Origin: Candidatus Nanoarchaeia archaeon
GTDB lineage: Archaea; Nanobdellota; Nanobdellia; Woesearchaeales; GW2011-AR9
DNA: 64,000 nucleotides
Assembly: GCA_035290865.1 (NCBI GenBank)
Contig: DATDTM010000018.1
Location: forward strand, 11,763 to 75,762
Reading direction: 5' to 3'
The notes beneath the pieces are model-generated. The model saw only the letters and a list, made by a program, of their open reading frames with translations. It ran no database searches and was not told the origin of the DNA. Below, one piece after another: positions 10,645-55,879 of the stretch (positions are counted from its first letter, which is position 1; each line of letters starts with the position of its first letter). The position numbers and the translations under genes are program-made.

Positions 10645-10647
10645 TTC

Positions 10648-14595: not shown

Positions 14596-14637
14596 CCCTT
14601 ATTTTAATTACAATCTATTTATAATCATTATGAAAAT

Positions 14638-14790: not shown

Positions 14791-14806
14791 TTATCTTTCT
14801 ATAAAT

Positions 14807-27410: not shown

Positions 27411-28700
27411 TTATTCCACAATCCTAAACTCCGGCAGGGGCACGATCCATTTTCCGCCTTTTAATCTCCATTCAGTTTCCCTTGCATACATCTCTTTAAA
27501 GAAAGCATAAGGTAAAACTAAAAAATAATCCGGCTGAGCTTTCCTAGCTTCTTCCTCAGTAAGAATAGGAATTCCTGTTCCGACCGTATATCGCTCGAAT
27601 TTCCAGGGGCTTCTCTCTGAGGCAGCGGTAATTAAGGTATGGTCTAAGCCATAATACTGTAAGATGACATTACCTTTAGTGGAAGCGCCATAAACCCAGA
27701 CTTTTTTTCCTCGGGCAGTTTCCTGCTTGATGAAATCCACGCATTTCTTCTTGTTCTGTTCCAGGTGCTGGAAAAAGTCTAAATATACTTGCTTATTGCG
27801 GTAATCTTTCTCCTCAGACTTAACTTTAGCGATACGTTCTGCTGCTCCTGATGGGATATTGATTAAGACCCCTTTCTTTTTTGCATACAAACGATAACTT
27901 CCGCCATTGACATCATTAATTTCAATATCAAAGATTTCCAAACCGTTTTTTCCAAACAAATGTTCTAAAGAGGAAAAAGAATAATATTCTAGATGTTCGT
28001 GGCAAATATTTCCTACATCATTTCCATCCAGCATATTCTTCAGGCACATCAATTGAGCGATAAAAACTCCATCTTCAGTTAAGGCCCTGGCTGCATCTGC
28101 GATGAACTGATTAGGGTCTTCCATATCATAAAACATGCCTAGAGCAGTAATGATTTTAGCTTTTTTCCCGACTACTGACCAATACTTATCATAGATCCAA
28201 AAATCGTTGAGGAAATGAGTAATTCCCTGCTTTCCTTCTTCTGCAAGGTTAGTGGCTGGCTCTATGCCAATGGTAATCAAATTAGGAACAGTAAATTGCC
28301 TCAATAAAGTTCCATCATTAGAGCCAATATCCAAAACTACGTCTCCCGACTTCAGATTGAACCTTTTTTCTGCGATTTCAGCAATCTCTTTAAGAGCTTT
28401 TTTCATGGTCTCAGTTACCCCGGACTTGTACCAATAGAATCTGCTATAGAGAAGCTCTTGGGGAGCAGTATGCTTTAACTGCACTAAAGTACAATTCTCG
28501 CAGAAAACCATCTCTAAAGGAGCTTTTCTTCCTGTAGAAATATTTTCTTTGGTGGGGAAATCGTTGAGGAATTGGGTGCCTAAAGAGAACAAAGGGCTTA
28601 ATTTAGGAGAATTACAAACCCGGCAGGTAGTGCGAGTAGTATAATTCGATCCTACAGCTGGTTTATCTTTTTCTGAATTTTGATTCACTTTTTCCACCAT
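27411..28700 (-). CDS. NDP-sugar C-methyltransferase-like (Zn-ribbon + class I SAM MTase + C-methyltransferase C-terminal domain)
   Basis: N-terminal CRVCNS...CENC zinc ribbon. VVLDIGSNDGTLL SAM motif I. Architecture of the TylC3/Coq5-unrelated C-MTase family. Confidence 0.65.
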   Translation of the reverse strand: MVEKVNQNSEKDKPAVGSNYTTRTTCRVCNSPKLSPLFSLGTQFLNDFPTKENISTGRKAPLEMVFCENCTLVQLKHTAPQELLYSRFYWYKSGVTETMKKALKEIAEIAEKRFNLKSGDVVLDIGSNDGTLLRQFTVPNLITIGIEPATNLAEEGKQGITHFLNDFWIYDKYWSVVGKKAKIITALGMFYDMEDPNQFIADAARALTEDGVFIAQLMCLKNMLDGNDVGNICHEHLEYYSFSSLEHLFGKNGLEIFDIEINDVNGGSYRLYAKKKGVLINIPSGAAERIAKVKSEEKDYRNKQVYLDFFQHLEQNKKKCVDFIKQETARGKKVWVYGASTKGNVILQYYGLDHTLITAASERSPWKFERYTVGTGIPILTEEEARKAQPDYFLVLPYAFFKEMYARETEWRLKGGKWIVPLPEFRIVE

Positions 28701-28730: not shown

Positions 28731-29156
28731 TTAATAAAGGTTTTGGTTCTCCACTCTATTGAACACCAATCTCTTATTCAAGAAATAATTCAATATTGAG
28801 ATGATCAAAGCCACCAGTATTATCGAAAGCAGGTAATACACTCTTAGAATTACGCTTAATAAATAAACTCCCACCCAATTCAGAGCACTGATGAATAAGA
28901 TCACGATAACAAACTTCAGGAAATGACCTTTCTTTCTAAAAGTAATCATAGAATGATAGCCAAACAAAAATAAAATTTCTAGACAAAGAGCAAGAGCAAA
29001 AGAGAGCATATGCCATAACTGGAAAAATTCAGTTAAGAGATAAGTCACCGTTAGATTCAGGAGCAGGCTCAAACCACCGCCGAAAAGGAATTTAAAGTAG
29101 CGGAACCAATTTTCTTTAATCATGGAAATAAGTTCACTCATTTTTCTAATCCCCAC
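28731..29156 (-). CDS. GtrA-family small membrane protein (polyprenyl-phosphate sugar translocation accessory)
   Basis: 141 aa, 4 TM, KxxxxFxxVGxxxxLxNL-like start (FRYFKFLFGGGLSLLLNLTVTYLL). 19-nt overlap with the upstream GT2. Confidence 0.6.
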   Translation of the reverse strand: MGIRKMSELISMIKENWFRYFKFLFGGGLSLLLNLTVTYLLTEFFQLWHMLSFALALCLEILFLFGYHSMITFRKKGHFLKFVIVILFISALNWVGVYLLSVILRVYYLLSIILVALIISILNYFLNKRLVFNRVENQNLY

Positions 29157-29878
29157 CTTAATTTCAAGACTTTTAAACCGTAATCTTTACCCAAGCGGAA
29201 TAAAGTCCATAAATCCCCGTCAGACTTAGAGACCCCTCCTGGACGGATCTGATATTTACAAGGAACCTCGATGATCTTGAACTTATTCTTTTTGGCTTTA
29301 TAGGCAAACTCGATAAAATATTCGCCAAAACCTTTTCGGGAGAAGTGAACTTTATCAAATACTTCTTTTCTTACTGCGGCAAAGCCAGAGGTATAATCTC
29401 TTACTCCCCAACCTAAGAGTAACATAGCATAAGCATTGATCAAGATGCTTAATAAAACTCGGAACTTGGGGCGAGGATCTGCGCCGCCTTTTACATATCT
29501 AGAAGCGATAGCTACATCGTATTGATCTAATTTTGAAACCAATCCAAGAATCTCCTCAGGGGATAAACCTAAATCGCAGTCTAGCCAGACGATGACTTTG
29601 CCTTTAGCAGCGCGAATTCCGTCGTCTAAAGCTGAGGAAAGGCCTTTTTCTTTGATCCTGCGGATTAATCTTACTTTCGGATGGTGTAATTCTTCAACTA
29701 ATTTCCAGGTCTGGTCAGGAGAATTATCGTCAACCACAATTATCTCTAATAATTGAGAGCCTAAACTATTAGAAATACGTTCGATAGCCTCTTGGATATT
29801 AGCCCGCTCATTATAAGAAGGTAGAACTACTGAAACAAAATGGGTTAAATCTTTAATCTTATTTATTTCTGAATCCAA
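29138..29878 (-). CDS. family 2 glycosyltransferase (polyprenyl-phosphate glycosyltransferase, DPM1/GtrB-like)
   Basis: VSVVLPSYNERANI...IIVVDDNSPD...WLDCDL (DxD). Confidence 0.8.
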   Translation of the reverse strand: MDSEINKIKDLTHFVSVVLPSYNERANIQEAIERISNSLGSQLLEIIVVDDNSPDQTWKLVEELHHPKVRLIRRIKEKGLSSALDDGIRAAKGKVIVWLDCDLGLSPEEILGLVSKLDQYDVAIASRYVKGGADPRPKFRVLLSILINAYAMLLLGWGVRDYTSGFAAVRKEVFDKVHFSRKGFGEYFIEFAYKAKKNKFKIIEVPCKYQIRPGGVSKSDGDLWTLFRLGKDYGLKVLKLRWGLEK

Positions 29879-30591
29879 GCTACCGTCACCCAGCTTAATT
29901 TTCTTAAAGGGGGGATGACCTGCATTAAAAAGTTATCTATTCTGGAAAGAGCATGAAAGAGCTTGCTGACAATTCTTTTGTTCTTGATAAGAAAAAACAA
30001 AAATAAGAAAAAACAGGAAAAGAGGTAAAATTCCCTGTGTTTAGCTTGGATTTTCTTTAGGAACTTAAAAGGGATGTATTCCGGTCGGGAATGGCGGTAA
30101 GGAGAGAAAGTGCGATAAGGAAAAGCGAAGAGCCAATGCTTTAAAGTTTCAATAAAGATTAATTTTCCTCCAGGCTTGAGCACACGCAGGCTTTCTTGGA
30201 TAACCTTGTCCTGATCTTCATCTTTAATGTGCATGAGCAGAGAATTGAAATAAACCAAATCAAAAGTATTCTCTTGAAAAGAAAGAGCCCGGGCATCCAT
30301 TTTCTTGACCTGAACCTGCCTGAAATTGTTCTCTGTAAGAACCTTTCTGGTCTCGGAGATGCTTTTTTCAGAGATATCAATAGCAGCCAATTCTGCCCCT
30401 TCCCTGCAAAAGAATAAAGCCTGGGCTCCGCTTCCACAGGCTATCTCTAATAATCTCTTATCTTTAATATCACCTAGCAATTGGTAAGAGAAATCCACTG
30501 CGCTTTTATGCATGAGATGATCAATCAGTTCGGTTTTATCTGTAAAAGAATCTGAATTCCAGACCTCATCCCAGAATCTTTCTTGGTTCAT
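29863..30591 (-). CDS. class I SAM-dependent methyltransferase
   Basis: LLEIACGSGAQALFF motif I. DISEKSI motif II. Confidence 0.7.
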   Translation of the reverse strand: MNQERFWDEVWNSDSFTDKTELIDHLMHKSAVDFSYQLLGDIKDKRLLEIACGSGAQALFFCREGAELAAIDISEKSISETRKVLTENNFRQVQVKKMDARALSFQENTFDLVYFNSLLMHIKDEDQDKVIQESLRVLKPGGKLIFIETLKHWLFAFPYRTFSPYRHSRPEYIPFKFLKKIQAKHREFYLFSCFFLFLFFLIKNKRIVSKLFHALSRIDNFLMQVIPPLRKLSWVTVAWIQK

Positions 30592-30622: not shown

Positions 30623-32929
30623 CTATCTTAACTCCTGAACCTCTTTAATCTTTTCCACAATAAATTCAATCTGCTCTTTAGTCAAGTGGCTGGAAGAGGG
30701 CAGATAAAAGCCTTTTCTTTCTAATTCATCTGAACCCGGATATTTTCCGGCGCAGTCAGGATAATTTGGTTTAGGAGAATTAAGGTACATCGGCTGCTTA
30801 TGCATGCCAATGAAGAAAGTCCTGGTTTCCACTCCCCGCTGTTCTAATCTTTCTCTCAACTGGGGCATGGTCTTACCAAAATCATCTTGGATTAAAACAC
30901 CATACATCCAATAAACGTTTTTAGCCCATTCAGCTTCCGGAGGAGTGGTTATTCCTTTTACACCGGCTAAAAGCTGATTGTACAACTGAGCATTATTCCT
31001 GCGAGCTTTCACTAATTCATCAATCCGCTCTAATTGGGCCAGGCCTATGGCCGCCTGCAGATTGGTTAGGCGATAATTGTAGCCTACTTTCGGATGGATA
31101 AATCTGGGCAGGCCAAAATAATGATTTCTTAATTTTTTCATTTCTTCGGCCCATTTATCGTTATTGGTTACGACCATCCCGCCTTCTCCACAATTATGAA
31201 CTAATATTCCGTGGGCAAAGTAATTATGATTATCAACAGTTTCAATATTATGTACTTTCCCGGAATAATTCTTTTTAATTATTTGGGATACTTTAACAAT
31301 CTTTACTTTTGGATTGTAGATAAAAGTTTTAATACGTTCAGATAAAATCTCTTTATTTTTTAGCTCATTCTCCCAGAGAATAAGTGAATCATAACCGCAA
31401 TTATTGTATCTTCTTCTGCGAAGATCATATTCTTCTGGTTTATGCCAGTAAGAGCCAAGTAAATCAATTACTTTGCGTTTTCCTTTCAGGTGAACGAAGT
31501 CAGGAATCAAGCGATCAATCCTTACTTTTAGCCGACAATCGCCATTATAACCAAATTCTCCAGGAAAATACTGCTCCAAGAAGTGCTGAAGGTGCTGTTC
31601 TGGTCTATTTGGTTTTAAGTTCATCCCTTGAAGGTAATGTTCCCAATAAGAATCTTTCTCCATAGCACGAAGAACTCCTTTGCTTACCTTCTCCCGATAA
31701 GAGAAATCTTGCCCTAAAACTAAAGCGGAAAGACGCTTCTTTTCTCTAATCGCTGGATCTGCACCTATTTCTTTCATCTTTTGGCTGAAAGCACTGCGAT
31801 CCTCTGCAGAAAGGGCAGACCATCTCTCTTTTTGAGACTGGCTAAATTTCTTTCTCGTTTCCTTAGAAGGTTTTCTTCCTCTATTTGCTAGACTGATCTT
31901 AGCGGCTACCTGAGACCAATCGATTTTAGCATAAGTTGAATCTTCTTCCGCATGCCTTTGAGAAATAATCAAAGCATGTTCTTTTCTTTTTCTCTCTGCG
32001 ACTTCTGGCCCCATAATCTCTGTATAATTCTTTCCGGTGTACATCTCTTTATAGGCTAGACCACGATAGATATATTGGATTACTTCATCCCCTAGACTTA
32101 ATTGGTCTGCACGAACCCAGCCTTTACTTAAGACATAAACTGGATGATTGGGAGTAGTCTGAAAATGATTATGATTAGAGAAAGATATTTCTAACAAATT
32201 TCCATTATAATCCCTCTTAAAAGTTTTAGTCACTTTCTTATATTCTTTCTGGGCGGTCTTAAGATTATAGGTCAGTACTGAGTCCCCTACTTTAAGCTCA
32301 GATATTTTTTTCATCCTGCTTAATCCTTTGCCGCTTTTTGGAGGCTCGATCAGAATTTTGGTCTCAGGAGGAAAACAGGTCACAATTTTATTGGCATAGA
32401 AACTAAAAGTAGCAATATCGCTTAAGCTACCTGTTTTTCTACCTTTGTATTCTGCGCCGTGCGCTTCAGCTGCATCTTCAATCACATAAAGATTATGCTT
32501 ATCCGCAATTCTTTTGACTTTATCCATATCTACCGGATGGCCATAAGTATGCACGACCATGATCGCTTTAGTTCGGGGAGTGATCTTCTCTTCGATCTTA
32601 TCGATATCAATATTCCAAGTATCCAATTCAGAATCTACTAAGACTGGTTTAGCTCCGGCATAAATCACTCCATTACAAGAAGCAGCCATGGTAAAAGTAG
32701 GAATGATTATTTCATCTCCCGGGCCAATACCCAAAGCTTCTATGGCCAGATGGATAGCTACTGTGCCATTGCAGCAGCTCACCCCATGTTTAACAGTACA
32801 ATATTCTGCAAATTTCTCTTCGAATTTCTGCAAGTAAGATCCGGCAGAAGAAATCCAGCCGGTCTTGATCGTATCAGTAACATACTTCAATTCATTGCCT
32901 TGTAAAGTTGGTTCACAGACGGGTATCAT
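30623..32929 (-). CDS. DegT/DnrJ/EryC1/ArnB-family PLP-dependent sugar aminotransferase, interrupted by an intein
   Basis: N-extein 184 aa (…DAAEAHGAEYKG…FSFYANKIVT), then Cys1; C-extein CGEGGMVVTNN…. The K of SFYANK is the PLP lysine position. Exteins together are ~373 aa, normal for DegT. Confidence 0.85.
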   Translation of the reverse strand: MIPVCEPTLQGNELKYVTDTIKTGWISSAGSYLQKFEEKFAEYCTVKHGVSCCNGTVAIHLAIEALGIGPGDEIIIPTFTMAASCNGVIYAGAKPVLVDSELDTWNIDIDKIEEKITPRTKAIMVVHTYGHPVDMDKVKRIADKHNLYVIEDAAEAHGAEYKGRKTGSLSDIATFSFYANKIVTCFPPETKILIEPPKSGKGLSRMKKISELKVGDSVLTYNLKTAQKEYKKVTKTFKRDYNGNLLEISFSNHNHFQTTPNHPVYVLSKGWVRADQLSLGDEVIQYIYRGLAYKEMYTGKNYTEIMGPEVAERKRKEHALIISQRHAEEDSTYAKIDWSQVAAKISLANRGRKPSKETRKKFSQSQKERWSALSAEDRSAFSQKMKEIGADPAIREKKRLSALVLGQDFSYREKVSKGVLRAMEKDSYWEHYLQGMNLKPNRPEQHLQHFLEQYFPGEFGYNGDCRLKVRIDRLIPDFVHLKGKRKVIDLLGSYWHKPEEYDLRRRRYNNCGYDSLILWENELKNKEILSERIKTFIYNPKVKIVKVSQIIKKNYSGKVHNIETVDNHNYFAHGILVHNCGEGGMVVTNNDKWAEEMKKLRNHYFGLPRFIHPKVGYNYRLTNLQAAIGLAQLERIDELVKARRNNAQLYNQLLAGVKGITTPPEAEWAKNVYWMYGVLIQDDFGKTMPQLRERLEQRGVETRTFFIGMHKQPMYLNSPKPNYPDCAGKYPGSDELERKGFYLPSSSHLTKEQIEFIVEKIKEVQELR
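31193..32377 (-). mobile_element. intein (395 aa) with a putative nested endonuclease domain
   Basis: Starts CFPPETKIL (block A Cys1), block B TPNHP, ends ...AHGILVHN followed by +1 Cys (31190..31192). Internal segment ...IPDFVHLKGKRKVIDLLGSYWH resembles Vsr/DUF559-type PD-(D/E)XK endonucleases rather than LAGLIDADG. Confidence 0.75.
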
Positions 32930-33390
32930 TTTTTATCACCTAGTATTCTTTTTTCCTCTTCCTTGCCCCGATAAGGGCCTTGTTTTATCTCTACCATTTC
33001 AGTTTCTTCTAAAAAAGTAAAGCCATGGGCAGTATTTAAAACAATAGAATCACCGTTCTGGACGATGATCTCTTTGATTTTTTTATCTTGATTTAATTCA
33101 TCATACAAATCAATCTTTAATCTTCCGGAAATTAGGTGAAAAAATTCCTGTATTGGAAAATTCTTTAATTCTTTAAAGGGAATATGGGCATGGGCAGGGA
33201 TGGTCTCTTCCTTTTGGCGATGATGGATTCCCAGCTGGAAAGGAAAATCATCCGGGCTGGCGAAAAGCATTTTCTTTCCTGATTCTTTTAATTCTGAGAA
33301 AGCTTTTCCGCGGATGATTACAGCTAAGAGCTTGCCGTTATGTTCTACTCTTTCTATGGAATGGGCGAAATTATCTTCTCTCTGAACCAT
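32926..33390 (-). CDS. cupin-fold protein, possible NDP-4-keto-6-deoxyhexose 3,4-ketoisomerase (FdtA/WxcM-like)
   Basis: ~150-aa cupin with a His pair (HAHIPF), directly upstream of the DegT aminotransferase with a 4-nt overlap, the classical FdtA–FdtB arrangement. Motif match is weak. Confidence 0.45.
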   Translation of the reverse strand: MVQREDNFAHSIERVEHNGKLLAVIIRGKAFSELKESGKKMLFASPDDFPFQLGIHHRQKEETIPAHAHIPFKELKNFPIQEFFHLISGRLKIDLYDELNQDKKIKEIIVQNGDSIVLNTAHGFTFLEETEMVEIKQGPYRGKEEEKRILGDKK

Positions 33391-49973: not shown

Positions 49974-51425
49974 TTAGGTTGAACTTTTAAAATAATACAG
50001 GTCCAGCTCTTTATATTTCTTTTCTAAGATTAAAGGAAATTTACCAATTAATAACTCTTGGTAATAATCTCCGGTTTTTATATTACGAGAAGAGACCAGC
50101 CAGAAATTCTTCTCTTTAGAAATGTTTTGGAATAATTCTTCCTCGTTAATCTGGACTAATTTACCCCTTTCTTCCCAAGTTAAATTTAAGTGCCTAAAAT
50201 TGGGAGATGAATAATAATCATACAAGAGAACATTTGATCCAGAGCGGTCAAAAAGAATCAGAATATTCTGATCCGAATGCTCTGAGATGAAATTAACAGC
50301 TTCAGCCCAGGGAGCTTTAGTGGTTTCGGTATAATAAACCAATAAGGTATAAGAATTAAACAACAAAATAATTAAGATTGCGGTTAATTTTAGTTGATTA
50401 GGCTTTATTTTTAATACTGCCCAGGCTAAAAGAATAATAAAAAAAGGAAAGATAAAAAAAGAATGGCGAATCAAAGCAAATGAACGTAAGATTGTTTCTA
50501 ATAAAATTAAATGCACGATACCCAACAATAAAGCGAAGAATAAAATGGTTCTAACCAAATATTCCTGCTTAAATCTGAGGATTAAATATTTCTTAAAAAT
50601 GTAAAATCCGAATACGAAAAAGAATAAAGAAATTATTAAAGGCAATAAATAAAATAAAATCCCTAAATTACTTAAAAATTCAGGTACTCCGCGCAAAATT
50701 AAAGTTTTTTGTAAGATAGGGTGGCGGATTAAAGCCTGGAGGTAAAGTATTTGCATCCCCGGTAGGAACAAGATAAAAGTGCTAATGAAAGAAAAGATTT
50801 GAGTTTTCAGCGAGGATTTGCTTTGGAAATAAAAGAAAAATAAAAAAATTAGTAGATGGAATAACAATTCAAATAAAGCCAGGTAATTGATGTATAAAGA
50901 AACCGCATTAACTAGAGTATATCCCAAAAAGTAATATTTTCTTTTCGAGCCAAGGTCATTTTGGTATAAACATAAAAAGAGATAAGAAGAAAGCAAGACT
51001 AAAAAACCGAAGAGAGCGTAAGGCCGGGCTTCCTGGGCATAGACTATCGGAAGCATAGTGGTAGAGAAAACCAAAGCGGAGAGTAAGCCTACTTTCTGGT
51101 TAAAGACTTTTTTTCCGAGAAGATAAACCAAGATTATCGAGAAACAATCAAATAGAACAGATAAAAATCTCAAAGAAAATTCAGATTCTCCAAAATAATT
51201 GGCCCAAGATTGTAACATCAAAAAGTATCCAGGAGGCATAAGTTCAGCATAAATGACTGAATCTATCAGCTCTTTAGCATTCTCCGCACGCAGATGGATC
51301 AAAGAAATCATCTCATCAGTCCAGAGAGATTCTGCAGTGAGATCATAAAATCTTAACCCGACGCCTAAGAGAATAATTAGAAATAAACAGAATAAAAACG
51401 TTTTGTTATTAATTGGATTGGGCAT
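49974..51425 (-). CDS. GT-C fold glycosyltransferase (ArnT/PMT-like)
   Basis: 483 aa polytopic. ESLWTDEMISLIHL DE motif in the first loop. Confidence 0.65.
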   Translation of the reverse strand: MPNPINNKTFLFCLFLIILLGVGLRFYDLTAESLWTDEMISLIHLRAENAKELIDSVIYAELMPPGYFLMLQSWANYFGESEFSLRFLSVLFDCFSIILVYLLGKKVFNQKVGLLSALVFSTTMLPIVYAQEARPYALFGFLVLLSSYLFLCLYQNDLGSKRKYYFLGYTLVNAVSLYINYLALFELLFHLLIFLFFFYFQSKSSLKTQIFSFISTFILFLPGMQILYLQALIRHPILQKTLILRGVPEFLSNLGILFYLLPLIISLFFFVFGFYIFKKYLILRFKQEYLVRTILFFALLLGIVHLILLETILRSFALIRHSFFIFPFFIILLAWAVLKIKPNQLKLTAILIILLFNSYTLLVYYTETTKAPWAEAVNFISEHSDQNILILFDRSGSNVLLYDYYSSPNFRHLNLTWEERGKLVQINEEELFQNISKEKNFWLVSSRNIKTGDYYQELLIGKFPLILEKKYKELDLYYFKSST

Positions 51426-51438
51426 GATTGTTTAGCAC

Positions 51439-52272
51439 CTAAATACTTTTAAAAAAATCTTGGGGATAGATCAATCTGATTCTCTTTTTCTTCAACTCTT
51501 TAAAATCTTCTTTAGTGGGCATCCTGGTGAAGGTTGCTTTAGTCTCATCTTGCTTAATGACCGGAAGAGGGCTGCTTTGATCTGCATAATCCTCAATAAA
51601 TTCATTGAGCATCTGGCCGAAAGATTTAGCCAGCTGATGATGAAGCTGATAAACAGAACTATTTTGATCATAAGTAAATTTCCTCTGGAAGATGATATCG
51701 CCAGTATCTAAACCCGCATTCATAAAATGGATGGTAACTCCGTAGTGTGAATCATTATTTAAACGGTACCAAAAATATTGGGCAGCCCCGCGATATTCCG
51801 GTAAGTAAGAGCCATGAGCATTAATCAAACGGTTTCCTAAAGTAGTAAAAACATTCTTTTTCAGAATCTGAGCTACTAAGCATAAGACATAATCGGGATT
51901 AAGCTCTTTTATTTTGGTAAGGAAACTCTCTTCACTAAGATCAGAAGTGGTAATAAGGGGGATGTTTTTCTTTCTAGCCAGATCGATGATAGAAACTGCT
52001 CGATCATCTCTATAGGCTTTACTCTTAATCATTTTATGTCCAGCTAACAGGAGGTTATATAATTTCGATTCCACTAATTTGTAGATGAAAAAATTGAAAG
52101 ATGATTTCTGGGTTAATTTATAGGCTACTTTTAACTGGCCAATTAAAGAATCACCCCGAAACTGACTGGCCAGGACAATAGCTTGGATTTTATCGGAATT
52201 TTTTAGAAGAATCTCTCGAGTTGCCACTATCGAAGCCATAGTATTCTGGGTAAAGAGGATTATTTTTGCCAT
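51439..52272 (-). CDS. formyltransferase-domain protein (ArnA-N/Fmt/sugar N-formyltransferase-like)
   Basis: LINAHGSYLPEYRGAA...GVTIHFMNAGLDTGDII (HxSLLPxxRG plus catalytic Asp region). Confidence 0.75.
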   Translation of the reverse strand: MAKIILFTQNTMASIVATREILLKNSDKIQAIVLASQFRGDSLIGQLKVAYKLTQKSSFNFFIYKLVESKLYNLLLAGHKMIKSKAYRDDRAVSIIDLARKKNIPLITTSDLSEESFLTKIKELNPDYVLCLVAQILKKNVFTTLGNRLINAHGSYLPEYRGAAQYFWYRLNNDSHYGVTIHFMNAGLDTGDIIFQRKFTYDQNSSVYQLHHQLAKSFGQMLNEFIEDYADQSSPLPVIKQDETKATFTRMPTKEDFKELKKKRIRLIYPQDFFKSI

Positions 52273-52295
52273 AAGTTATTATCTTTTGCTGAAGG

Positions 52296-53036
52296 TTAAA
52301 AAGATTTAAACCTTAACTGAAAGATGCGTTTAAGATAAAGCATCCCAAACTTGAATAAGCCGGATATAGTTTTAGCAGTTTTAGACTGGCCTGCGCGACG
52401 GTCTATAAAAGAGAAAGGAACCTCTTGGATAGAATATCCTTTCTTTCCCGCTTGGTATAAAAATTCAATACAATATTCTCCATAGCCAGAATCAGATAAC
52501 CTGATTTTATCTAATACTTCTCTTCTGGCGGCAACAAAACCACTATCATAATCTAAAACTTTAAAATTTAAGACCAAATTAGTGACGAGGTTAATGAATC
52601 TACTGGAAATTACTCTTAATAGAGGGCGCTGATCTTTCCCCCCTTTAGCATAACGTGAACCAACAGTAATATCTTTATCTTTCAATATGGAGAGCATCTG
52701 GGGTATTAATTCCGGAGGCATGGACAAATCTGCATCCATCCAGAGCACATATTTTCCGTTAGATTGATCTATTCCGCGCTGGATAGCGCTGGCTAGCTTC
52801 TTTTCATTAATCCTACGAATAACTTTAACCTCTGGATCCTTGAGCTCTTCAGCAATCTGCCAGGTCAAATCCGGACTATCATCATCTACCACTAAAATCT
52901 CTTTAGAATAGGCAGATAAAGCCGCTTTAGTTCTTTGAATCAAAGGCAGAATATTCTGGGCTTCATTAAAAGTAGGAAAGACCACCGAAACTTCCGTTTG
53001 GACCGAGGTTTTGAGGGGGGTTTTAATTGAGGTCAT
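52296..53036 (-). CDS. family 2 glycosyltransferase (ArnC/DPM1-like polyprenyl-phosphate glycosyltransferase)
   Basis: VSVVFPTFNEAQNI...ILVVDDDSPD...WMDADL. Confidence 0.8.
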   Translation of the reverse strand: MTSIKTPLKTSVQTEVSVVFPTFNEAQNILPLIQRTKAALSAYSKEILVVDDDSPDLTWQIAEELKDPEVKVIRRINEKKLASAIQRGIDQSNGKYVLWMDADLSMPPELIPQMLSILKDKDITVGSRYAKGGKDQRPLLRVISSRFINLVTNLVLNFKVLDYDSGFVAARREVLDKIRLSDSGYGEYCIEFLYQAGKKGYSIQEVPFSFIDRRAGQSKTAKTISGLFKFGMLYLKRIFQLRFKSF

Positions 53037-53115
53037 CTTAGAACAATCTTTTAAATCTGGTTTTATATATCTTTTGGAAGTAAGATTAAGTTAAATTATT
53101 ATAAATTAAAATAAT

Positions 53116-53270
53116 AAAAAATCCCCATCGCAGCATACGCGAATCTGCAGATTCCCTAGTTGCTTATCAGCAACAGCTGCGGGGTATTTAATTAGTTGGG
53201 ATTTTTTAATCTTAACTGGGTAATTTAATATCATAGCAAGCTATGGGGTATGTACCCAGTTAAGAAATCA
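53116..53270 (+). repeat. structured repeat, copy 2 (subtype B); direct repeat upstream of the 5-formyl-THF cyclo-ligase gene
   Basis: Shared 5' module plus 3' arm. aaaaaatcccca... pairs with ...gttgggatttttt; cttaactgggta pairs with tacccagttaag; nested catagc/gctatg. Confidence 0.8.
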
Positions 53271-53317
53271 TAGTATCATAACCTTTTAAAAGTATTTAAC
53301 TTAAAAAGAATAGATTA

Positions 53318-53944
53318 ATGAGAAAATTAAGAGAAGAATTACTGAAAGTACGCGGTTCTTTAAGCCTAGAAGAAGTTAAAATTAAGAGTAAAGAGATTAT
53401 TAAAAATGTACTGCGATTCAAACCGTTTACAAATTCAGCAAAAACTCTTTATTATCATCCCAGAGGAAAAGAAGCAGATTTAATGGAATTAATGAATTTA
53501 TCGTTAAAAGAAAATAAACCCATCTTCCTTCCGAAAACATATTCCGCGGATACCTCAATGAAGATTCATCAGATTAAAGATTTTAATTCTGAGCTGGAGC
53601 TAGGAGCATATGGAATTAAAGAGCCTAAACCAATCTATCCCGAATTTCCAAGACAGAAATTAAATTTAATATTTATACCGGGAGTAGCTTTTGATCTTGC
53701 AGGAAACAGATTAGGAATGGGAAGAGGTTATTATGACCGATTTTTAAAAGATATTTCAGCAATAAAAGCGGGTATTGCCTACGAATTTCAGATAGTAGAT
53801 AGATTAGATGCGCAGAGACATGATATTCCAATGGATTTTATAATTACTGAAAAGAGAATCATTGAAATAAAAAATCCCAATCGCAGCATACGTGAATCTG
53901 CTGATTCCCTAGTTGCTTATCAGCAACAGCTGCGGGGTATTTAA
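53318..53944 (+). CDS. 5-formyltetrahydrofolate cyclo-ligase (MTHFS), with C-terminal 24 aa encoded by repeat copy 3
   Basis: GMGRGYYDRFL signature. ORF end ...KNPNRSIRESADSLVAYQQQLRGI* is a direct translation of the repeat 5' module. Confidence 0.75.
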   Translation: MRKLREELLKVRGSLSLEEVKIKSKEIIKNVLRFKPFTNSAKTLYYHPRGKEADLMELMNLSLKENKPIFLPKTYSADTSMKIHQIKDFNSELELGAYGIKEPKPIYPEFPRQKLNLIFIPGVAFDLAGNRLGMGRGYYDRFLKDISAIKAGIAYEFQIVDRLDAQRHDIPMDFIITEKRIIEIKNPNRSIRESADSLVAYQQQLRGI

Positions 53945-54023
53945 TTAGTTGGGATTTTTTAATCTTAACTGGGTAATTTAATATCATAGCAAGCTATGGG
54001 GTATGTACCCAGTTAAGAAATCA
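53869..54023 (+). repeat. structured repeat, copy 3 (subtype B); near-identical to copy 2 (few substitutions), overlapping the 3' end of the MTHFS ORF
   Basis: 155 nt, same stems as copy 2. Confidence 0.8.
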
Positions 54024-54091
54024 ATAGAAGCCAGTAAAGAGACCTGTTAAAAAAAAGCAGCAAAAAATAATTTTTAATTCATTTAAAAAAA

Positions 54092-54946
54092 ATGGCACAA
54101 TTACTTAACGGAAAGGAAGTTGCAGAAAAAATCCTAGCTGAACTAAAAATAAAAGCAGCTTCTTTCCCTGCGAGACCAACTTTAGGGATTATTTCCGTGG
54201 GTGAGGATCCCGCCTCTCAAGTGTATATCAAGAAGAAAATCAAAGCTGCAGAAGAAATAGGAGTTAAGGCCAAACATTACCAATTAAGAGAAAATACTGA
54301 AGAAAGAGAGTTATTAAAATTAATTGAAGAACTGAATCTTGACCCAGAGATGGATGGATTTATCGTCCAACTGCCGCTTCCGGAACAAATCCGCGAAGAG
54401 AGAATAATTGAGAGCGTTTCCCCGGAAAAAGATCTGGACGGTTTTCATCCATTTAACCAAGGGAAGATGTTTCAAGGGATAATCAATTCTGAAAGCCTAC
54501 TTCCAGCCACACCTTTGGGAATAATGAAATTATTAGAACATTACCAAATAGAATTAGAAGGAAAAAAAGCAGTAATGGTAGGAAGAAGCAATATCGTGGG
54601 AAAGCCGCTGGCTGCTCTTCTCTTGAACAAAAATGCCACGGTAACCATAGCCCATAGCAAAACTAAGAACTTAGCTGAACATACTCAAGCTGCAGATATA
54701 ATAATTGCTGCGGTAGGAAAACCAAATTTAATCACTGTAGAGATGATCAAACCAGGAGCAATAGTAATTGATGTAGGAATGAATCGGGTAAATGGAAAGC
54801 TGGTTGGAGATGTAGATTTTGAGAAAGTAAAAGAAAAAGCTGCTTATATTACCCCGGTTCCTGGAGGGGTTGGCCCAATGACGGTGGCCATGTTAATGTA
54901 TAATTTAATCTCTCGAAAAGATAAAGATTTAAAATTAAATGATTAA
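54092..54946 (+). CDS. folD: bifunctional 5,10-methylene-THF dehydrogenase / 5,10-methenyl-THF cyclohydrolase
   Basis: GKEVAEKI...PTLGIISVGEDPASQVYIKKKIKAAEEIGV. VGRSNIVGKPLAALL. PVPGGVGPMTVAML. Confidence 0.9.
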   Translation: MAQLLNGKEVAEKILAELKIKAASFPARPTLGIISVGEDPASQVYIKKKIKAAEEIGVKAKHYQLRENTEERELLKLIEELNLDPEMDGFIVQLPLPEQIREERIIESVSPEKDLDGFHPFNQGKMFQGIINSESLLPATPLGIMKLLEHYQIELEGKKAVMVGRSNIVGKPLAALLLNKNATVTIAHSKTKNLAEHTQAADIIIAAVGKPNLITVEMIKPGAIVIDVGMNRVNGKLVGDVDFEKVKEKAAYITPVPGGVGPMTVAMLMYNLISRKDKDLKLND

Positions 54947-55000
54947 AGTTAATAAGAAGTCAGATTAATTCAACAACAACAAAAAATAAACTTAACTAAA

Positions 55001-55879
55001 ATGAAAGTAATAATTTCCATCCCTGCCTATAACGAAGAGAAAACTCTTGCTCTGGTCTTATCTGAGATTCATCAAGTGATGAAAAGTGCAGGCTATGCTT
55101 ATGAAATTCTAGTTCTAAACGATGGTTCAACTGATAGAACTGTAGAAGTAGCCAAGAGTTTAGGAGTAATAGTAGTTTCCAATAAGATCAATCTGGGATT
55201 AGCGGAAACCTTCAAAAGAGAGATGAAAGAATGCTTAAAGTTAAAAGCAGACATTATTGTGCACACTGATGCAGACGGTCAATACCATCCCCAGCATATC
55301 CCACAATTAATCGGAAAAGTAAAGGAAGGATATGATCTGGTTCTAGGAAGCAGATTTCAGGGAAAAGTCAAACATATGCCTCTTTTGAAGAAAATGGGAA
55401 ACTTAGCCTTCTCTAAAGTTTTAAGTTCGCTGACTAAAATCAAGATTACTGATTCAACTACCGGATTCAGGGCCTTCACTCCAGAAATAGCTAGAGAGAT
55501 TAATTATATCAATACGTTTACCTATACTCAAGAGCAAATCATCAAAGCTGCCAAGCAAGGGTTTAAAATCACAGAGATTCCAATCATTTCAAGAAAGACC
55601 AGGGAGAGCAGGCTGTTTAAGAACCCATTTCAATATGCAATCAAAGCCTGGATCAATATTTTTCGAATCTACCGAGATTATCAGCCTTTAAAATTCTTTG
55701 GCAGGATTGGATTGTTTTTCCTGTCCATTGGTGTAGGTATTGGAGTTTGGCTGGCCTATCGCTACTTTACTTTAGGCTATGTAGGAAAAACACCCTCTAC
55801 CCAGCTAAGCGTACTTTTGATTTTGATGGGAATCCAGATTGTTTTATTTGGATTCCTGGCGGATATGGTTCAGAAATAG
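55001..55879 (+). CDS. family 2 glycosyltransferase with two C-terminal TM helices (GtrB/ArnC/AglD-like polyprenyl-phosphate glycosyltransferase)
   Basis: ISIPAYNEEKTL...VLNDGSTDRT...DADGQYHP, plus the C-terminal hydrophobic pair. Confidence 0.8.
   Translation: MKVIISIPAYNEEKTLALVLSEIHQVMKSAGYAYEILVLNDGSTDRTVEVAKSLGVIVVSNKINLGLAETFKREMKECLKLKADIIVHTDADGQYHPQHIPQLIGKVKEGYDLVLGSRFQGKVKHMPLLKKMGNLAFSKVLSSLTKIKITDSTTGFRAFTPEIAREINYINTFTYTQEQIIKAAKQGFKITEIPIISRKTRESRLFKNPFQYAIKAWINIFRIYRDYQPLKFFGRIGLFFLSIGVGIGVWLAYRYFTLGYVGKTPSTQLSVLLILMGIQIVLFGFLADMVQK

What the first reader, a model, noticed from the sequence alone, without database searches (positions are those of the whole stretch)
49974..55879. 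Arn-like lipid-linked formamido-sugar module with adjacent folate one-carbon genes
GT2 (ArnC-like), formyltransferase (ArnA-N-like, HxSLLPxxRG) and GT-C transferase (ArnT-like, TDEMI) are consecutive on the minus strand. This is the same order as arnC-arnA-arnT of the L-Ara4N pathway. A DegT/ArnB-like aminotransferase, an FdtA-like isomerase, a GtrA-like protein (ArnE/F analogue) and a GtrB-like GT2 lie elsewhere in the window. Immediately downstream are a 5-formyl-THF cyclo-ligase and folD, the enzymes that regenerate 10-formyl-THF, the formyl donor. This suggests a dedicated one-carbon supply for N-formylation of an amino sugar carried on a polyprenyl phosphate and transferred by a GT-C enzyme to protein, lipid or glycan.
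Basis: inference. Interest (0 to 1): 0.6.

Follow-up and report, generated by a model that had tools for sequence, protein, structure and literature searches.

The report
Archaeal Arn-like formamido-sugar cluster with folate genes
A tiny-celled (DPANN, Woesearchaeota-type) archaeon carries a conserved gene cluster that most likely makes an N-formylated amino sugar, hangs it on a membrane lipid carrier and transfers it to the cell surface, and in most relatives the folate enzymes that make the formyl donor sit inside the same cluster.

Summary
Genes for a GT2 glycosyltransferase (52296-53036), a formyltransferase (51439-52272) and a GT-C transferase (49974-51425) form a tight minus-strand operon. 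It is transcribed divergently from 5-formyl-THF cyclo-ligase, FolD and a second, membrane-anchored GT2.

The formyltransferase belongs to a small clade of about 275-residue proteins from Woesearchaeota/Nanoarchaeia. It keeps the Asn-His-Asp catalytic triad, lacks the Fmt/ArnA C-terminal domain, and reaches no NCBIfam cut-off.

In all 12 lineages examined it sits beside a GT2 and a PMT_2 GT-C. A LegC-like DegT aminotransferase and a small cupin are nearby wherever the flank is long enough. A dehydratase that passes the GDP-mannose 4,6-dehydratase cut-off is also there in three relatives.

In 7 of the 12 lineages folate genes (MTHFS/FolD, often fused, sometimes with SHMT, FolC or a C26 peptidase) lie between the two GT2 genes.

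Best reading: a GDP-mannose-derived amino-dideoxyhexose is N-formylated, loaded on dolichyl phosphate, flipped, and transferred outside the cell by the GT-C. It works like Arn but is not Arn. There is no ArnD, no ArnA decarboxylase domain and no lipid A. The "FdtA-like" call is not supported. I rate it a new variant of a known kind, of moderate interest.

The parts
52296..53036 (-). GT2a: soluble (no TM helix) polyprenyl-phosphate glycosyltransferase-like GT2 and first gene of the trio. Proposed dolichyl-phosphate formamido-sugar synthase.
   Evidence: Pfam Glycos_transf_2, E 5e-34. Best NCBIfam matches are AglJ, ArnC, PgfS, Dol-P-hexose transferase and PpgS, all below cut-off. It is 30% identical to E. 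coli ArnC over 170 aa and 46% identical to the paralogue GT2b, with no TM segment. It lies immediately upstream of the FT in all DPANN loci.
51439..52272 (-). Formyltransferase (FT), 277 aa. Proposed N10-formyl-THF-dependent NDP-amino-sugar N-formyltransferase.
   Evidence: Pfam Formyl_trans_N, E 1.5e-20. N151/H153/D189 are invariant. By hhalign, ArnA-N scores 136 against Fmt 112, PurU 83 and PurN 76. By NCBIfam, fmt scores 88.7 and ArnA 76.5, both far below cut-off. The AF2 model has pLDDT 91.6; ArnA-N and Fmt tie at TM about 0.6. It has no Formyl_trans_C domain and carries a helical insertion at residues ~43-88.
49974..51425 (-). GTC483: GT-C fold membrane glycosyltransferase (PMT_2). Proposed extracytoplasmic transferase that uses the lipid-linked sugar.
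   Evidence: Pfam PMT_2, E 9e-11. The AF2 model has pLDDT 89.8 and its best PDB fold match is ArnT 5ezm (E 3.9e-7, TMq 0.53), followed by AglB/STT3, ALG12 and Pmt4. W35-D37-E38, R86 and R134 are conserved. There is no sequence-level PDB hit.
53037..53317 (.). Divergent 281-bp intergenic region between GT2a and the 5-formyl-THF cyclo-ligase gene.
   Evidence: ORF coordinates. The bacterial-type promoter scan is not informative for an archaeon.
53318..53944 (+). 5-formyl-THF cyclo-ligase (MTHFS).
   Evidence: Pfam E 2e-40. NCBIfam TIGR02727 scores 160.6 bits against a cut-off of 84.9. It is fused to FolD in L001/L002/L007, L006 and L012.
54092..54946 (+). FolD: methylene-THF dehydrogenase / methenyl-THF cyclohydrolase.
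   Evidence: Both Pfam domains match. NCBIfam FolD models score up to 363 bits, and PRK14186 scores 334.2 against a cut-off of 333.
55001..55879 (+). GT2TM: ArnC/GtrB/AglJ-type GT2 with two C-terminal TM helices. A second lipid-phosphate sugar synthase that always brackets the folate block.
   Evidence: Pfam. NCBIfam AglJ scores 143.8 bits over the full length. It is 24% identical to E. coli ArnC over 301 aa including the TM region, with TM segments at 232-254 and 264-291. It is conserved at 71-77% identity in relatives.
45585..47570 (-). M661: highly conserved polytopic membrane protein of unknown family that follows the GT-C in relatives. Possibly a divergent GT-C.
   Evidence: No Pfam, NCBIfam or PDB hit. 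It is 52-59% identical in relatives. hhalign gives 61% probability to GTC613.
45313..45588 (-). 91-aa single-TM, Cys-rich protein that overlaps both neighbouring genes.
   Evidence: ORF. 79-85 aa genes are called at the same position in L001, L003 and L004, and an 83-aa gene lies next to the M661 homologue in L018.
43482..45323 (-). GTC613: second PMT/PMT_2 GT-C glycosyltransferase.
   Evidence: Pfam PMT_2 E 1e-17 and PMT E 1e-10. Weak Agl23 match. hhalign gives 98.7% probability to GTC483.
47571..49973 (.). Insertion specific to this window: an IS481-like transposase (47667-48539, +) and an MFS transporter (48708-49889, -). It separates GTC483 from M661.
   Evidence: Pfam rve/HTH and MFS_1. 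A 16-nt exact direct repeat lies at 47608 and 48580. GTC483 and M661 are adjacent in all relatives.
32926..33390 (-). Small cupin (154 aa) translationally coupled to DegT. Proposed sugar keto-isomerase or epimerase; the function is not established.
   Evidence: WbuC-family cupin at 30 bits (cut-off 42). Only weak Cupin_2 matches. H67, H69, E82 and H122 are invariant. It lies upstream of DegT in every locus.
30623..32929 (-). DegT-family sugar aminotransferase interrupted by an intein.
   Evidence: Pfam DegT E 3e-118 plus Intein_splicing. The best NCBIfam match is LegC-family (326 bits); ArnB scores 213. The N-extein is 39% identical to E. coli ArnB.
29863..30591 (-). SAM methyltransferase between DegT and GT2b.
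   Evidence: Pfam. It is present in L008 and L009 but absent in most other relatives.
29138..29878 (-). GT2b: paralogue of GT2a and a third lipid-phosphate sugar synthase.
   Evidence: Pfam E 2e-36. It is 46% identical to GT2a and lies next to GtrA in the window, L003, L006, L007 and (separated by a methyltransferase) L008.
28731..29156 (-). GtrA/DPMS-TM-like small membrane protein. Proposed partner or flippase for the soluble GT2s.
   Evidence: Pfam GtrA_DPMS_TM, E 3e-12. It overlaps the end of GT2b.
27411..28700 (-). NDP-hexose C-methyltransferase-like enzyme.
   Evidence: Pfam Methyltransf_13/14. It is 79-82% identical in L006 and L007.
22288..23409 (+). GDP-mannose 4,6-dehydratase-like enzyme. 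Proposed entry step of the sugar pathway.
   Evidence: NCBIfam gmd scores 394 bits against a cut-off of 415. Homologues next to cupin-DegT in L018, L019 and L023 pass the cut-off at 433-544 bits.

Best explanation
The window comes from a DPANN archaeon of the Woesearchaeota/Nanoarchaeia type. The finding is the core of a conserved surface-glycosylation cluster that works on the Arn principle.

Proposed steps, each marked as supported or inferred:
1. A GDP-mannose 4,6-dehydratase makes GDP-4-keto-6-deoxymannose. The Gmd family assignment is supported; the substrate is inferred.
2. The small cupin possibly isomerises or epimerises that intermediate (inferred; weak).
3. The LegC-like DegT aminotransferase makes a GDP-amino-dideoxyhexose, of the perosamine or mycosamine type. 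The family assignment is supported; the regiochemistry is unknown.
4. The 277-aa formyltransferase N-formylates the amine with N10-formyl-THF. The catalytic triad and folate motif are shown, and the sugar substrate is inferred from conserved synteny.
5. The soluble GT2a transfers the formamido sugar to dolichyl phosphate, probably working with a GtrA-like or flippase-like membrane partner (inferred from family resemblance and synteny).
6. After flipping, the ArnT-fold GT-C (GTC483) transfers the sugar to an extracytoplasmic acceptor. The fold is shown; the acceptor is unknown and could be S-layer or pilin protein, a glycan or a lipid.

MTHFS and FolD regenerate N10-formyl-THF. Relatives add SHMT, FolC and a C26 peptidase. 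In most lineages these genes are embedded between the two GT2 genes, most plausibly to secure the formyl donor for this pathway.

The wider cluster has three lipid-phosphate sugar synthases (GT2a, GT2b, GT2TM) and three GT-C-like proteins (GTC483, M661, GTC613). This suggests an outside-the-membrane assembly line fed by three lipid-linked monosaccharides.
For: Domain content and operon structure.

Formyltransferase:
- The triad N151/H153/D189 is invariant.
- It is closest to ArnA-N by phmmer against PDB (1.5e-15) and by hhalign (136 against 112 for Fmt).
- It has no Formyl_trans_C domain.
- It belongs to a broad family of 250-290-aa stand-alone proteins. Fmt-type proteins appear only at about 1e-26, with partial alignment.
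- In the NJ tree the DPANN clade has 93% support and the Fmt clade 95%, and they are separate.

Synteny:
- GT2 and PMT_2 GT-C genes flank the FT in the window and in L001-L013, L018, L019, L022 and L023.
- L005 has cupin-DegT-GT2-FT-GT-C contiguous.
- L018 and L019 add a Gmd that passes the equivalog cut-off, and L018 also adds an NTP-transferase and a flippase-like protein.
- A LPG_synthase_TM (flippase-like)+FT fusion lies between a GT2 and a DegT gene in L021.

GT-C: the AF2 model's best PDB match is ArnT.

Folate link:
- Folate genes lie between GT2TM and GT2a in the window, L001/2/7, L003/4/11, L006, L010/L023, L012 and L013.
- Their content varies: fused MTHFS-FolD of 450-490 aa, or additional SHMT, FolC or C26 peptidase.

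Established knowledge:
- Archaea do not formylate initiator Met-tRNA.
- ArnA-N formylates UDP-Ara4N before ArnC loads it on undecaprenyl phosphate.
- WbkC formylates GDP-perosamine.
- Mycobacterial PpgS (a soluble GT2), the small membrane protein Rv3632 and the GT-C Rv3779 work the same way (PMC3485146).
Against: - There is no biochemical evidence for any step.
- The FT is about equally distant from ArnA-N and Fmt in structure (TM 0.61 against 0.63). The NCBIfam fmt model scores slightly higher than ArnA (88.7 against 76.5). Deep nodes of the tree are unresolved.
- Characterised sugar N-formyltransferases (WlaRD, FdtF, QdtF, WbkC) are more distant than ArnA or Fmt.
- Five of 12 lineages (L005, L008, L009/L022, L018, L019) keep the trio with no folate gene in the available flank.
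- SHMT-MTHFS-FolD also looks like an ordinary folate operon (L024).
- In this window the aminotransferase block is 17 kb away, and an IS/MFS insertion splits the operon.
- The window's own Gmd scores just below the equivalog cut-off, and its second copy carries an in-frame TAG.
- GT2a has no TM helix, so membrane coupling is assumed.
Confidence: 0.65

Rival explanations
1. The glycosylation trio is as described, but the folate genes are ordinary housekeeping genes serving serine/glycine and thymidylate metabolism. On this reading their position next to the trio is inherited synteny, or neutral clustering in a small genome, and not a dedicated formyl supply.
For: - Five of 12 lineages have the trio without adjacent folate genes.
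- SHMT-MTHFS-FolD occurs as its own block elsewhere: in L024, beside a nonulosonic-acid cluster with no FT within 10 kb.
- The FolD sequences are typical, bacterial-like FolDs, 55-57% identical to Enterococcus and Sulfurihydrogenibium.
- All seven positive lineages could descend from a single ancestral arrangement.
Against: - The folate block is not merely near the cluster. It lies inside it, always bracketed by GT2TM on one side and GT2a on the other.
- Linkage persists down to 60% FT identity while the block's content and architecture change: separate or fused genes, with or without SHMT, FolC or peptidase, and FolD missing in L010/L023. The outer flanks differ as well.
- The only recognisable 10-formyl-THF consumer in these loci is the FT.
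Confidence: 0.25
2. As in the true Arn pathway, the formyl group is only a transient protecting and driving group. It would be removed from the lipid-linked sugar by an unrecognised deformylase, so the surface finally carries a free-amine (cationic) sugar and not a formamido sugar.
For: - The gene order and logic copy arnB-C-A-(D)-T.
- Related three-component systems (Arn, and mycobacterial PpgS/Rv3779, PMC3485146) deliver de-acylated amino sugars.
- Conserved proteins of unknown function (M661, the 91-aa protein) are available as candidates.
Against: - No ArnD homologue is found by tblastn in the window or in any related locus.
- No polysaccharide-deacetylase or YdjC domain appears in any Pfam listing of the loci.
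- Stable formamido sugars are common end products elsewhere, for example N-formylperosamine made by WbkC and Qui3NFo made by WlaRD (PDB descriptions).
Confidence: 0.15
3. The formyltransferase does not act on a nucleotide sugar. It would instead formylate a membrane-bound amine (a lipid-linked amino sugar or an amino lipid) at the membrane surface, or serve an unrelated Fmt/PurN-like role.
For: - The best NCBIfam score is the fmt model.
- One family member is fused to a flippase-like LPG_synthase_TM domain (P0158).
- The family-specific helical hairpin (residues ~43-88) sits where Fmt has its tRNA-recognition loop and could be a membrane or partner interface.
- A PilZ-fused member (P0160) lies in a non-glycan context.
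Against: - There is no Formyl_trans_C domain, and scores are far below the fmt and PurN cut-offs (88.7 against 201.5; 45 against 150).
- Archaea lack fMet initiation (established knowledge).
- The FT has no TM segment.
- A DegT aminotransferase is consistently linked, together with a Gmd-like dehydratase in three relatives and a sugar-1-phosphate nucleotidyltransferase in one (L018), which points to a nucleotide-sugar amine.
Confidence: 0.1

Closest known systems
Arn (PmrHFIJKLM) pathway of Gram-negative bacteria: ArnB, ArnC, ArnA, ArnD, ArnT, ArnE/F
   Same: - Same logic and gene order. A DegT aminotransferase, a GT2 that loads a formamido sugar on a polyprenyl phosphate, a folate-dependent N-formyltransferase and a GT-C transferase (order B-C-A-T in L005; C-A-T in the window).
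- The FT's nearest solved relative by sequence is ArnA-N.
- The GT-C's nearest solved fold is ArnT.
- GT2a and GT2TM are 24-30% identical to E. coli ArnC.
   Different: - No ArnA C-terminal UDP-GlcA decarboxylase domain, and no ArnD, ArnE or ArnF.
- The linked dehydratases are of the GDP-mannose 4,6-dehydratase type, so the sugar is a 6-deoxyhexose derivative and not L-Ara4N.
- The FT lacks the C-terminal subdomain and has a helical insertion.
- GT2a lacks TM helices.
- The GT-C has no sequence similarity to ArnT.
- The host is an archaeon without lipid A.
- Folate genes are embedded in the cluster.
Mycobacterial PpgS (Rv3631) / Rv3632 / Rv3779 galactosamine pathway
   Same: A soluble GT2 of about 240 aa makes a polyprenyl-P-(N-acyl)amino sugar with the help of a small membrane protein, and a GT-C transfers the sugar outside the membrane (PMC3485146). 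GT2a matches the NCBIfam PpgS model over its full length at E 2e-11, below cut-off. GT2b is encoded next to a GtrA-like protein.
   Different: The acyl group there is acetyl and comes from UDP-GalNAc. No formyltransferase, aminotransferase or folate genes are involved, and the acceptor is arabinogalactan.
Brucella Gmd-Per-WbkC route to GDP-N-formylperosamine, and other characterised sugar N-formyltransferases (WlaRD, FdtF, QdtF, Rv3404c, PseJ)
   Same: A GDP-mannose 4,6-dehydratase, a DegT aminotransferase and an N10-formyl-THF-dependent formyltransferase with the same core fold and Asn-His-Asp triad. WbkC, FdtF, WlaRD and QdtF all match the model at E of about 1e-12.
   Different: - Sequence identity is only 16-21%, and these enzymes are more distant than ArnA-N or Fmt.
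- In those systems the formamido sugar is used directly by cytoplasmic glycosyltransferases on an Und-PP-linked polymer. It is not routed through a GT2 / lipid monophosphate / GT-C relay.
Archaeal Dol-P-monosaccharide relay (Haloferax volcanii AglJ/AglD, a flippase-associated protein, and the Dol-P-mannose-dependent transferase AglS)
   Same: An archaeal GT2 charges dolichyl phosphate, and the sugar is added outside the cell by a membrane transferase. The best NCBIfam hit of all three GT2s is AglJ, and GTC613 weakly matches Agl23.
   Different: All scores are below cut-off. No amino-sugar formylation or folate linkage is known in those pathways (own knowledge). No AglB-type oligosaccharyltransferase gene was seen in the window.

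Membership tests
Arn (L-Ara4N lipid A modification) pathway | ArnA N-terminal UDP-Ara4N formyltransferase (equivalog level) | tested here: not met
   NCBIfam ArnA model scores 76.5 bits against a cut-off of 777, and the stand-alone formyltransferase PRK06988 scores 67.5 against 316. Homology is at superfamily level only: 27% identity over 171 aa.
Arn (L-Ara4N lipid A modification) pathway | ArnA C-terminal UDP-glucuronate oxidative decarboxylase | tested here: not met
   The FT is 277 aa with a single Formyl_trans_N domain. BLAST to E. coli ArnA covers only residues 44-212. The linked dehydratases are Gmd-type.
Arn (L-Ara4N lipid A modification) pathway | ArnD deformylase | tested here: not met
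   tblastn of E. coli ArnD against the window and all related loci gave no hit at E<=0.01.
Arn (L-Ara4N lipid A modification) pathway | ArnC-type GT2 with C-terminal TM helices | tested here: inconclusive
   GT2a is 30% identical to ArnC over 170 aa but has no TM helix. GT2TM aligns with ArnC over its full length, including two TM helices (24% identity). NCBIfam ArnC scores about 63 against a cut-off of 529.
Arn (L-Ara4N lipid A modification) pathway | ArnT GT-C transferase | tested here: inconclusive
   The best PDB fold match of the AF2 model is ArnT 5ezm (E 3.9e-7, TMq 0.53), but STT3/AglB, ALG12 and Pmt4 score similarly. No similarity to E. coli ArnT is found by BLAST, tblastn or hhalign.
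Arn (L-Ara4N lipid A modification) pathway | ArnB-type aminotransferase in the same cluster | tested here: met
   A DegT gene is in the window (39% identity to ArnB over the N-extein) and in the same operon in relatives. The best NCBIfam model is LegC-type, however, not ArnB.
Arn (L-Ara4N lipid A modification) pathway | Lipid A as acceptor | not testable with these tools
   The host is an archaeon: homologues are named Woesearchaeota/Nanoarchaeia, and a TrmB regulator and an intein are present. Archaea have no lipid A (established knowledge).
Sugar N-formyltransferases (WlaRD/FdtF/QdtF/VioF/WbkC/Rv3404c/PseJ type) | Formyl_trans_N core with Asn-His-Asp triad and the HxSxLPxxRG folate motif | tested here: met
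   N151, H153 and D189 are invariant, and NAHGSYLPEYRG is present. The fold matches all these enzymes at E of about 1e-12.
Sugar N-formyltransferases (WlaRD/FdtF/QdtF/VioF/WbkC/Rv3404c/PseJ type) | Genomic linkage to NDP-sugar 4,6-dehydratase and DegT aminotransferase genes | tested here: met
   A DegT gene is present wherever the flank is long enough. A Gmd that passes the equivalog cut-off is present in L018, L019 and L023.
Sugar N-formyltransferases (WlaRD/FdtF/QdtF/VioF/WbkC/Rv3404c/PseJ type) | Formyl transfer to an NDP-amino sugar | not testable with these tools
   This needs an enzyme assay.
Methionyl-tRNA formyltransferase (Fmt) | C-terminal tRNA-binding domain (Formyl_trans_C) and equivalog score | tested here: not met
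   There is no PF02911 domain, and the protein ends about 55 residues after the core. TIGR00460 scores 88.7 against a cut-off of 201.5. Fmt proteins form a separate clade with 95% bootstrap.
PurN / PurU | Equivalog score | tested here: not met
   PurN scores 45.3 against 150.1, and PurU 45.0 against 286. hhalign scores are lower than for ArnA-N or Fmt.
FdtA/QdtA 3,4-ketoisomerase (for the 154-aa cupin) | Match to the FdtA family or to a solved FdtA/QdtA structure | tested here: not met
   No FdtA Pfam hit at E<=1 in any of 11 homologues. The profile search against PDB found only unrelated cupins at E>=0.007. There is a weak WbuC-family hit below cut-off.
Folate one-carbon enzymes (MTHFS, FolD) | Curated family score | tested here: met
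   MTHFS TIGR02727 scores 160.6 against 84.9. FolD PRK14186 scores 334.2 against 333, and both Pfam domains match.

The most novel reading that the evidence does not exclude
These genome-reduced DPANN archaea may keep a bacterial-type folate one-carbon module (SHMT, FolD, MTHFS, FolC, C26 peptidase) mainly or only to formylate a surface sugar, so that a branch of central C1 metabolism has become part of a glycan gene cluster. The cluster itself would then be a previously undescribed extracytoplasmic assembly line. It would comprise three Dol-P-sugar synthases and three GT-C-like transferases, a new GT-C-like family (M661 with its 91-aa Cys-rich partner), and a new formyltransferase family with a helical-hairpin insertion. 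It would build the surface structure that mediates attachment to host cells.
Probability: 0.25. Interest if true: 0.7.

Novelty: new variant of a known kind. Interest (0 to 1): 0.5.

Why it matters
DPANN archaea are abundant, uncultured and mostly dependent on hosts, and their cell-surface chemistry is essentially unknown. This cluster gives a concrete, testable prediction: a GDP-mannose-derived formamido (or amino) dideoxyhexose delivered through dolichyl phosphate and a GT-C enzyme.

It would extend the Arn-type principle (acylate, lipid-link, flip, transfer) to Archaea. It also offers a rationale for why some very small archaeal genomes retain folate one-carbon genes even though archaea do not formylate initiator tRNA.

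The work defines a distinct formyltransferase family that databases currently label 'methionyl-tRNA formyltransferase' or 'PurN'. The same kind of misannotation has been reported for bacterial sugar N-formyltransferases (Girardi et al. 2020, cited as ref. 43 in PMC11431627).

No paper in the searchable library describes this cluster.

Tried and rejected
- Sequence and profile searches of GTC483, M661 and GTC613 against PDB sequences gave nothing useful. Fold search was needed for GTC483.
- hhalign of the GT-C profiles against E. coli ArnT was not significant.
- The cupin was tested as FdtA-like by Pfam on 11 homologues and by a PDB profile search, and the assignment was rejected.
- tblastn of E. 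coli ArnD, ArnE, ArnF and ArnT against the window and all loci gave no hits.
- The first tree attempt timed out. The second was invalid because the Kimura distance produced NaN values. Only the Poisson-distance NJ tree is used. Its deep nodes are poorly supported, and it lacks WlaRD, VioF and FdtF sequences, which I could not obtain in full.
- Structural comparison cannot separate ArnA-N from Fmt.
- The bacterial sigma-70 promoter and terminator scan gave counts no higher than shuffled sequence and is not applicable to an archaeon.
- No tRNA genes were found in the window.
- Literature searches for Woesearchaeota or DPANN combined with formyltransferase, ArnT or tetrahydrofolate found nothing on this cluster.
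- I considered and rejected that the FT is Fmt (no C-terminal domain, archaeal host) or PurN/PurU (low scores).
- I considered that the window's folate adjacency is peculiar to this genome. This was rejected because six other lineages show it.

Full report
**Observation.**
- On the minus strand lie a GT2 (52296-53036, 246 aa), a formyltransferase (51439-52272, 277 aa) and a PMT_2 GT-C membrane protein (49974-51425, 483 aa). The gaps between them are 23 and 13 nt.
- Across a 281-bp divergent intergenic region, on the plus strand, lie 5-formyl-THF cyclo-ligase (53318-53944), FolD (54092-54946) and a 292-aa GT2 with two C-terminal TM helices (55001-55879).
- So the folate genes are divergently transcribed neighbours, not 'downstream'.
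- The motifs quoted are present and conserved. The formyltransferase has NAHGSYLPEYRG with invariant N151, H153 and D189. The GT-C has WTDEM with conserved D37/E38.
- E. coli K-12 has arnB-C-A-D-T-E-F, so the C-A-T order matches apart from arnD.

**Host and setting.** The window (about 36% GC) is one large glycan-biosynthesis island.
- It contains two Wzx-type flippases, several GT2 and GT4 genes, B12-radical-SAM enzymes, methyltransferases, two Gmd-like dehydratases and a TrmB regulator.
- It also contains a DegT aminotransferase that is interrupted by an intein.
- Close homologues of the formyltransferase are all metagenomic, and the named ones are 'Candidatus Woesearchaeota archaeon' or 'Nanoarchaeia'.
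- A scan of one genome per GTDB species found the gene in only eight species, all MAGs of this kind. Some of those records are titled 'uncultured Methanosarcinales'.

**The formyltransferase.** It reaches no NCBIfam equivalog cut-off.

| Model | Score (bits) | Cut-off (bits) |
|---|---|---|
| fmt | 88.7 | 201.5 |
| ArnA | 76.5 | 777 |
| PurN | 45 | 150 |
| PurU | 45 | 286 |
| dTDP-Qui4N formyltransferase | 32 | 238 |

- Against PDB sequences the order is ArnA-N (1.5e-15), Fmt (2e-14), PseJ, WbkC, QdtF, WlaRD, FDH, PurU, PurN.
- Profile-to-sequence hhalign favours ArnA-N (136.5) over Fmt (112.4), PurU (83) and PurN (75.5).
- The AF2 model is confident (pLDDT 91.6). It superposes about equally on ArnA-N and Fmt (TM about 0.6) and slightly worse on WbkC, FdtF, WlaRD and QdtF.
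- The protein lacks the Fmt/ArnA C-terminal domain and ends about 55 residues after the catalytic core.
- It carries a conserved helical hairpin (about residues 43-88) at the position of the Fmt tRNA-recognition loop.
- A profile search of 1.8 billion representative proteins shows that the clade belongs to a wider family of 250-290-aa stand-alone proteins that align over the whole profile. Fmt-type proteins with Formyl_trans_C appear only near 1e-26, with partial alignments.
- In a bootstrapped NJ tree the DPANN clade (93%) and the Fmt clade (95%) are separate, and deeper nodes are unresolved.
Archaea also have no use for Fmt (established knowledge).

**Conserved synteny.** I mapped the window's proteins by BLAST onto ORFs of 13 related loci and read the Pfam-annotated gene lists of others. 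The canonical order is:

[PK-sulfurylase or large PPDK-like protein] <- GT2TM <- folate genes | -> GT2a -> FT -> GTC483 -> M661 -> ~85-aa protein -> GTC613 -> cupin -> DegT -> GT2b -> GtrA -> C-methyltransferase

- GT2 and PMT_2 GT-C genes flank the FT in all 12 lineages, including two distant ones (L018 and L019, 36% FT identity).
- In L005 the order is cupin-DegT-GT2-FT-GT-C, the same as arnB-C-A-T.
- In L018, L019 and L023 a dehydratase that passes the GDP-mannose 4,6-dehydratase equivalog cut-off (433-544 bits against 415) lies next to cupin-DegT.
- L018 also has a sugar-1-phosphate nucleotidyltransferase and a flippase-like (LPG_synthase_TM) protein.
- A family member is fused to such a flippase-like domain and lies between a GT2 and a DegT gene (P0158, L021).
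- The aminotransferases score best with the LegC (GDP-sugar) family.
- This window departs from the canon in two ways. An IS481-like transposase and an MFS gene are inserted between GTC483 and M661. About 10 kb (33.5-43.3 kb) separates GTC613 from the cupin-DegT block.

**Other components.**
- GT2a, GT2b and GT2TM all score best with polyprenyl-phosphate glycosyltransferases (AglJ, ArnC, Dol-P-hexose transferase, PpgS) but below cut-off.
- GT2a and GT2b are 46% identical paralogues without TM helices. GT2TM aligns with E. coli ArnC over its full length, including the two TM helices.
- GT2b overlaps a GtrA-like gene. This resembles the soluble PpgS plus the small membrane protein Rv3632 of mycobacteria, which feed the GT-C Rv3779 (PMC3485146).
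- GTC483 has no sequence-level relative among solved structures. Its AF2 model (pLDDT 89.8) matches ArnT best (5ezm, E 3.9e-7), followed by AglB/STT3, ALG12 and Pmt4.
- The 154-aa protein upstream of DegT is a metal-site cupin with invariant H67, H69, E82 and H122. It cannot be assigned to FdtA.
- No ArnD, ArnE, ArnF or ArnA C-terminal homologue exists in the window or in related loci.

**The folate link.**
- Folate genes lie between GT2TM and GT2a in seven of 12 lineages: the window, L001/2/7, L003/4/11, L006, L010/L023, L012 and L013.
- Their composition differs. MTHFS and FolD are separate in the window and fused (450-490 aa) in three lineages. L003 has SHMT, FolC and a C26 peptidase/GATase as well. 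L010 has SHMT, MTHFS and FolC without FolD. L013 has FolD and SHMT.
- Linkage that survives such remodelling, and down to 60% FT identity, argues for selection.
- By established biochemistry SHMT, FolD and MTHFS together convert serine carbon and stray 5-formyl-THF into N10-formyl-THF, the donor for this enzyme class.
- Against a strictly 'dedicated' supply, five lineages lack adjacent folate genes (L005, L008, L009, L018, L019).
- A distant fused MTHFS-FolD follows SHMT beside a nonulosonic-acid cluster without a nearby FT (L024).
- These enzymes also serve general C1 metabolism. Whether the FT is the only 10-formyl-THF consumer needs whole-genome data that I could not reach.

**Mechanism proposed.** The proposed route has these steps:
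1. Gmd converts GDP-mannose to GDP-4-keto-6-deoxymannose.
2. The cupin may isomerise or epimerise that intermediate.
3. The DegT aminotransferase makes a GDP-amino-dideoxyhexose.
4. The FT N-formylates it with N10-formyl-THF.
5. GT2a loads the formamido sugar on dolichyl phosphate.
6. A GtrA-like or flippase-like protein flips the lipid-linked sugar.
7. GTC483 transfers it to an unknown extracytoplasmic acceptor.

- Shown here: domain identities, catalytic residues, folds and conserved gene linkage.
- Inferred: the substrates, the lipid carrier, the topology and the acceptor.
- The three GT2 synthases and three GT-C-like proteins suggest a relay for three lipid-linked sugars.
- With no deformylase detectable, the formyl group is more likely retained than removed.

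**Comparison and verdict.** The system works like Arn, and like the mycobacterial PpgS/Rv3779 relay, but it fails several defining Arn features: the decarboxylase domain, ArnD, equivalog scores and lipid A.
- Its sugar chemistry is closer to the Gmd-Per-WbkC route to N-formylperosamine.
- Predicted sugar N-formyltransferases in archaea have been mentioned once, for a haloarchaeal plasmid gene (PMC11431627).
- I found no description of this DPANN cluster or of its folate linkage.
- I rate it a new variant of a known kind, with moderate interest (0.5).

Noticed in passing
window 30623-32929 (-): The DegT sugar aminotransferase is interrupted by an intein of about 390 aa (residues ~186-572), with Intein_splicing/HINT and DUF559-like endonuclease matches. 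The DegT genes called in most relatives are 361-391 aa, without an intein. L008 has a 544-aa version, and L022 has a version with a NUDIX match that runs off the locus end.
   Followed up: partly
window 55982-58300 (+) and 58302-59144 (+): An unusual 772-aa fusion of a pyruvate-kinase barrel with PUA and ATP sulfurylase is followed by a CysQ-like PAP phosphatase, and no APS kinase was seen. Homologues of this fusion flank GT2TM in several relatives (L007, L012), and so does a 950-1515-aa protein with CTP_transf_like + PPDK_N + PEP-utilizers (+NTP_transferase) domains (L002/L007, L003, L012, L019). This hints at PEP-driven activation (sulfation or phospho-modification) linked to the same glycan cluster.
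   Followed up: partly
window 26328-27347 (-): The second Gmd-like dehydratase has an 18-nt insertion with an in-frame TAG (27291-27293) inside the GITGQD|GSYLAE NAD-binding motif. The ORF finder therefore starts it at an internal TTG. It is probably a pseudogene. It lies next to a HEPN/nucleotidyltransferase pair (25254-26227).
   Followed up: partly
window 47571-49973: An IS481-like transposase (47667-48539) is flanked by an exact 16-nt direct repeat, GGAGTTAAAGATATAG, at 47608 and 48580. Together with an MFS transporter (48708-49889) it is inserted between GTC483 and M661, which are adjacent in all relatives.
   Followed up: partly
window 45313-47570 (-): M661 is a polytopic membrane protein with conserved DPWGH, YIDPYPPAYD and HQTSP motifs. 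Its overlapping 91-aa partner is a Cys-rich single-TM protein. This is the best-conserved unknown pair of the cluster, with no Pfam, NCBIfam or PDB match. hhalign gives only a 61% probability of relationship to the neighbouring GT-C.
   Followed up: partly
L001:1560-2996, L006:7613-9085, L012:7840-9192, L024:479-1900: MTHFS and FolD are fused into one 450-490-aa protein in several Woesearchaeota lineages. The FolD part is 55-57% identical to bacterial FolD (Enterococcus, Sulfurihydrogenibium), which suggests bacterial ancestry.
   Followed up: partly
proteins P0158 (L021), P0160 (L020), P0271: Members of the wider formyltransferase family occur as fusions: with a flippase-like LPG_synthase_TM domain, with a PilZ domain (Omnitrophota, next to an aminotransferase and sensor kinases), and with a SAM methyltransferase.
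   Followed up: partly
window 8286-16252: A run of genes that probably specify another modified sugar: two B12-binding radical-SAM enzymes (8286-9734, 14807-16252), a SPASM radical-SAM enzyme (12297-13310), two nucleotidyltransferases (9790-12309) and ribulose-phosphate 3-epimerase (13903-14595).
   Followed up: no
FT residues ~43-88 (window 52009-52146, minus strand): A family-specific helical hairpin with invariant polar residues (Q46, K65, E68, S69; H79 nearly invariant) sits where Fmt has its tRNA-recognition loop. Its role (substrate lid, partner interface or membrane interface) is unexplained.
   Followed up: no
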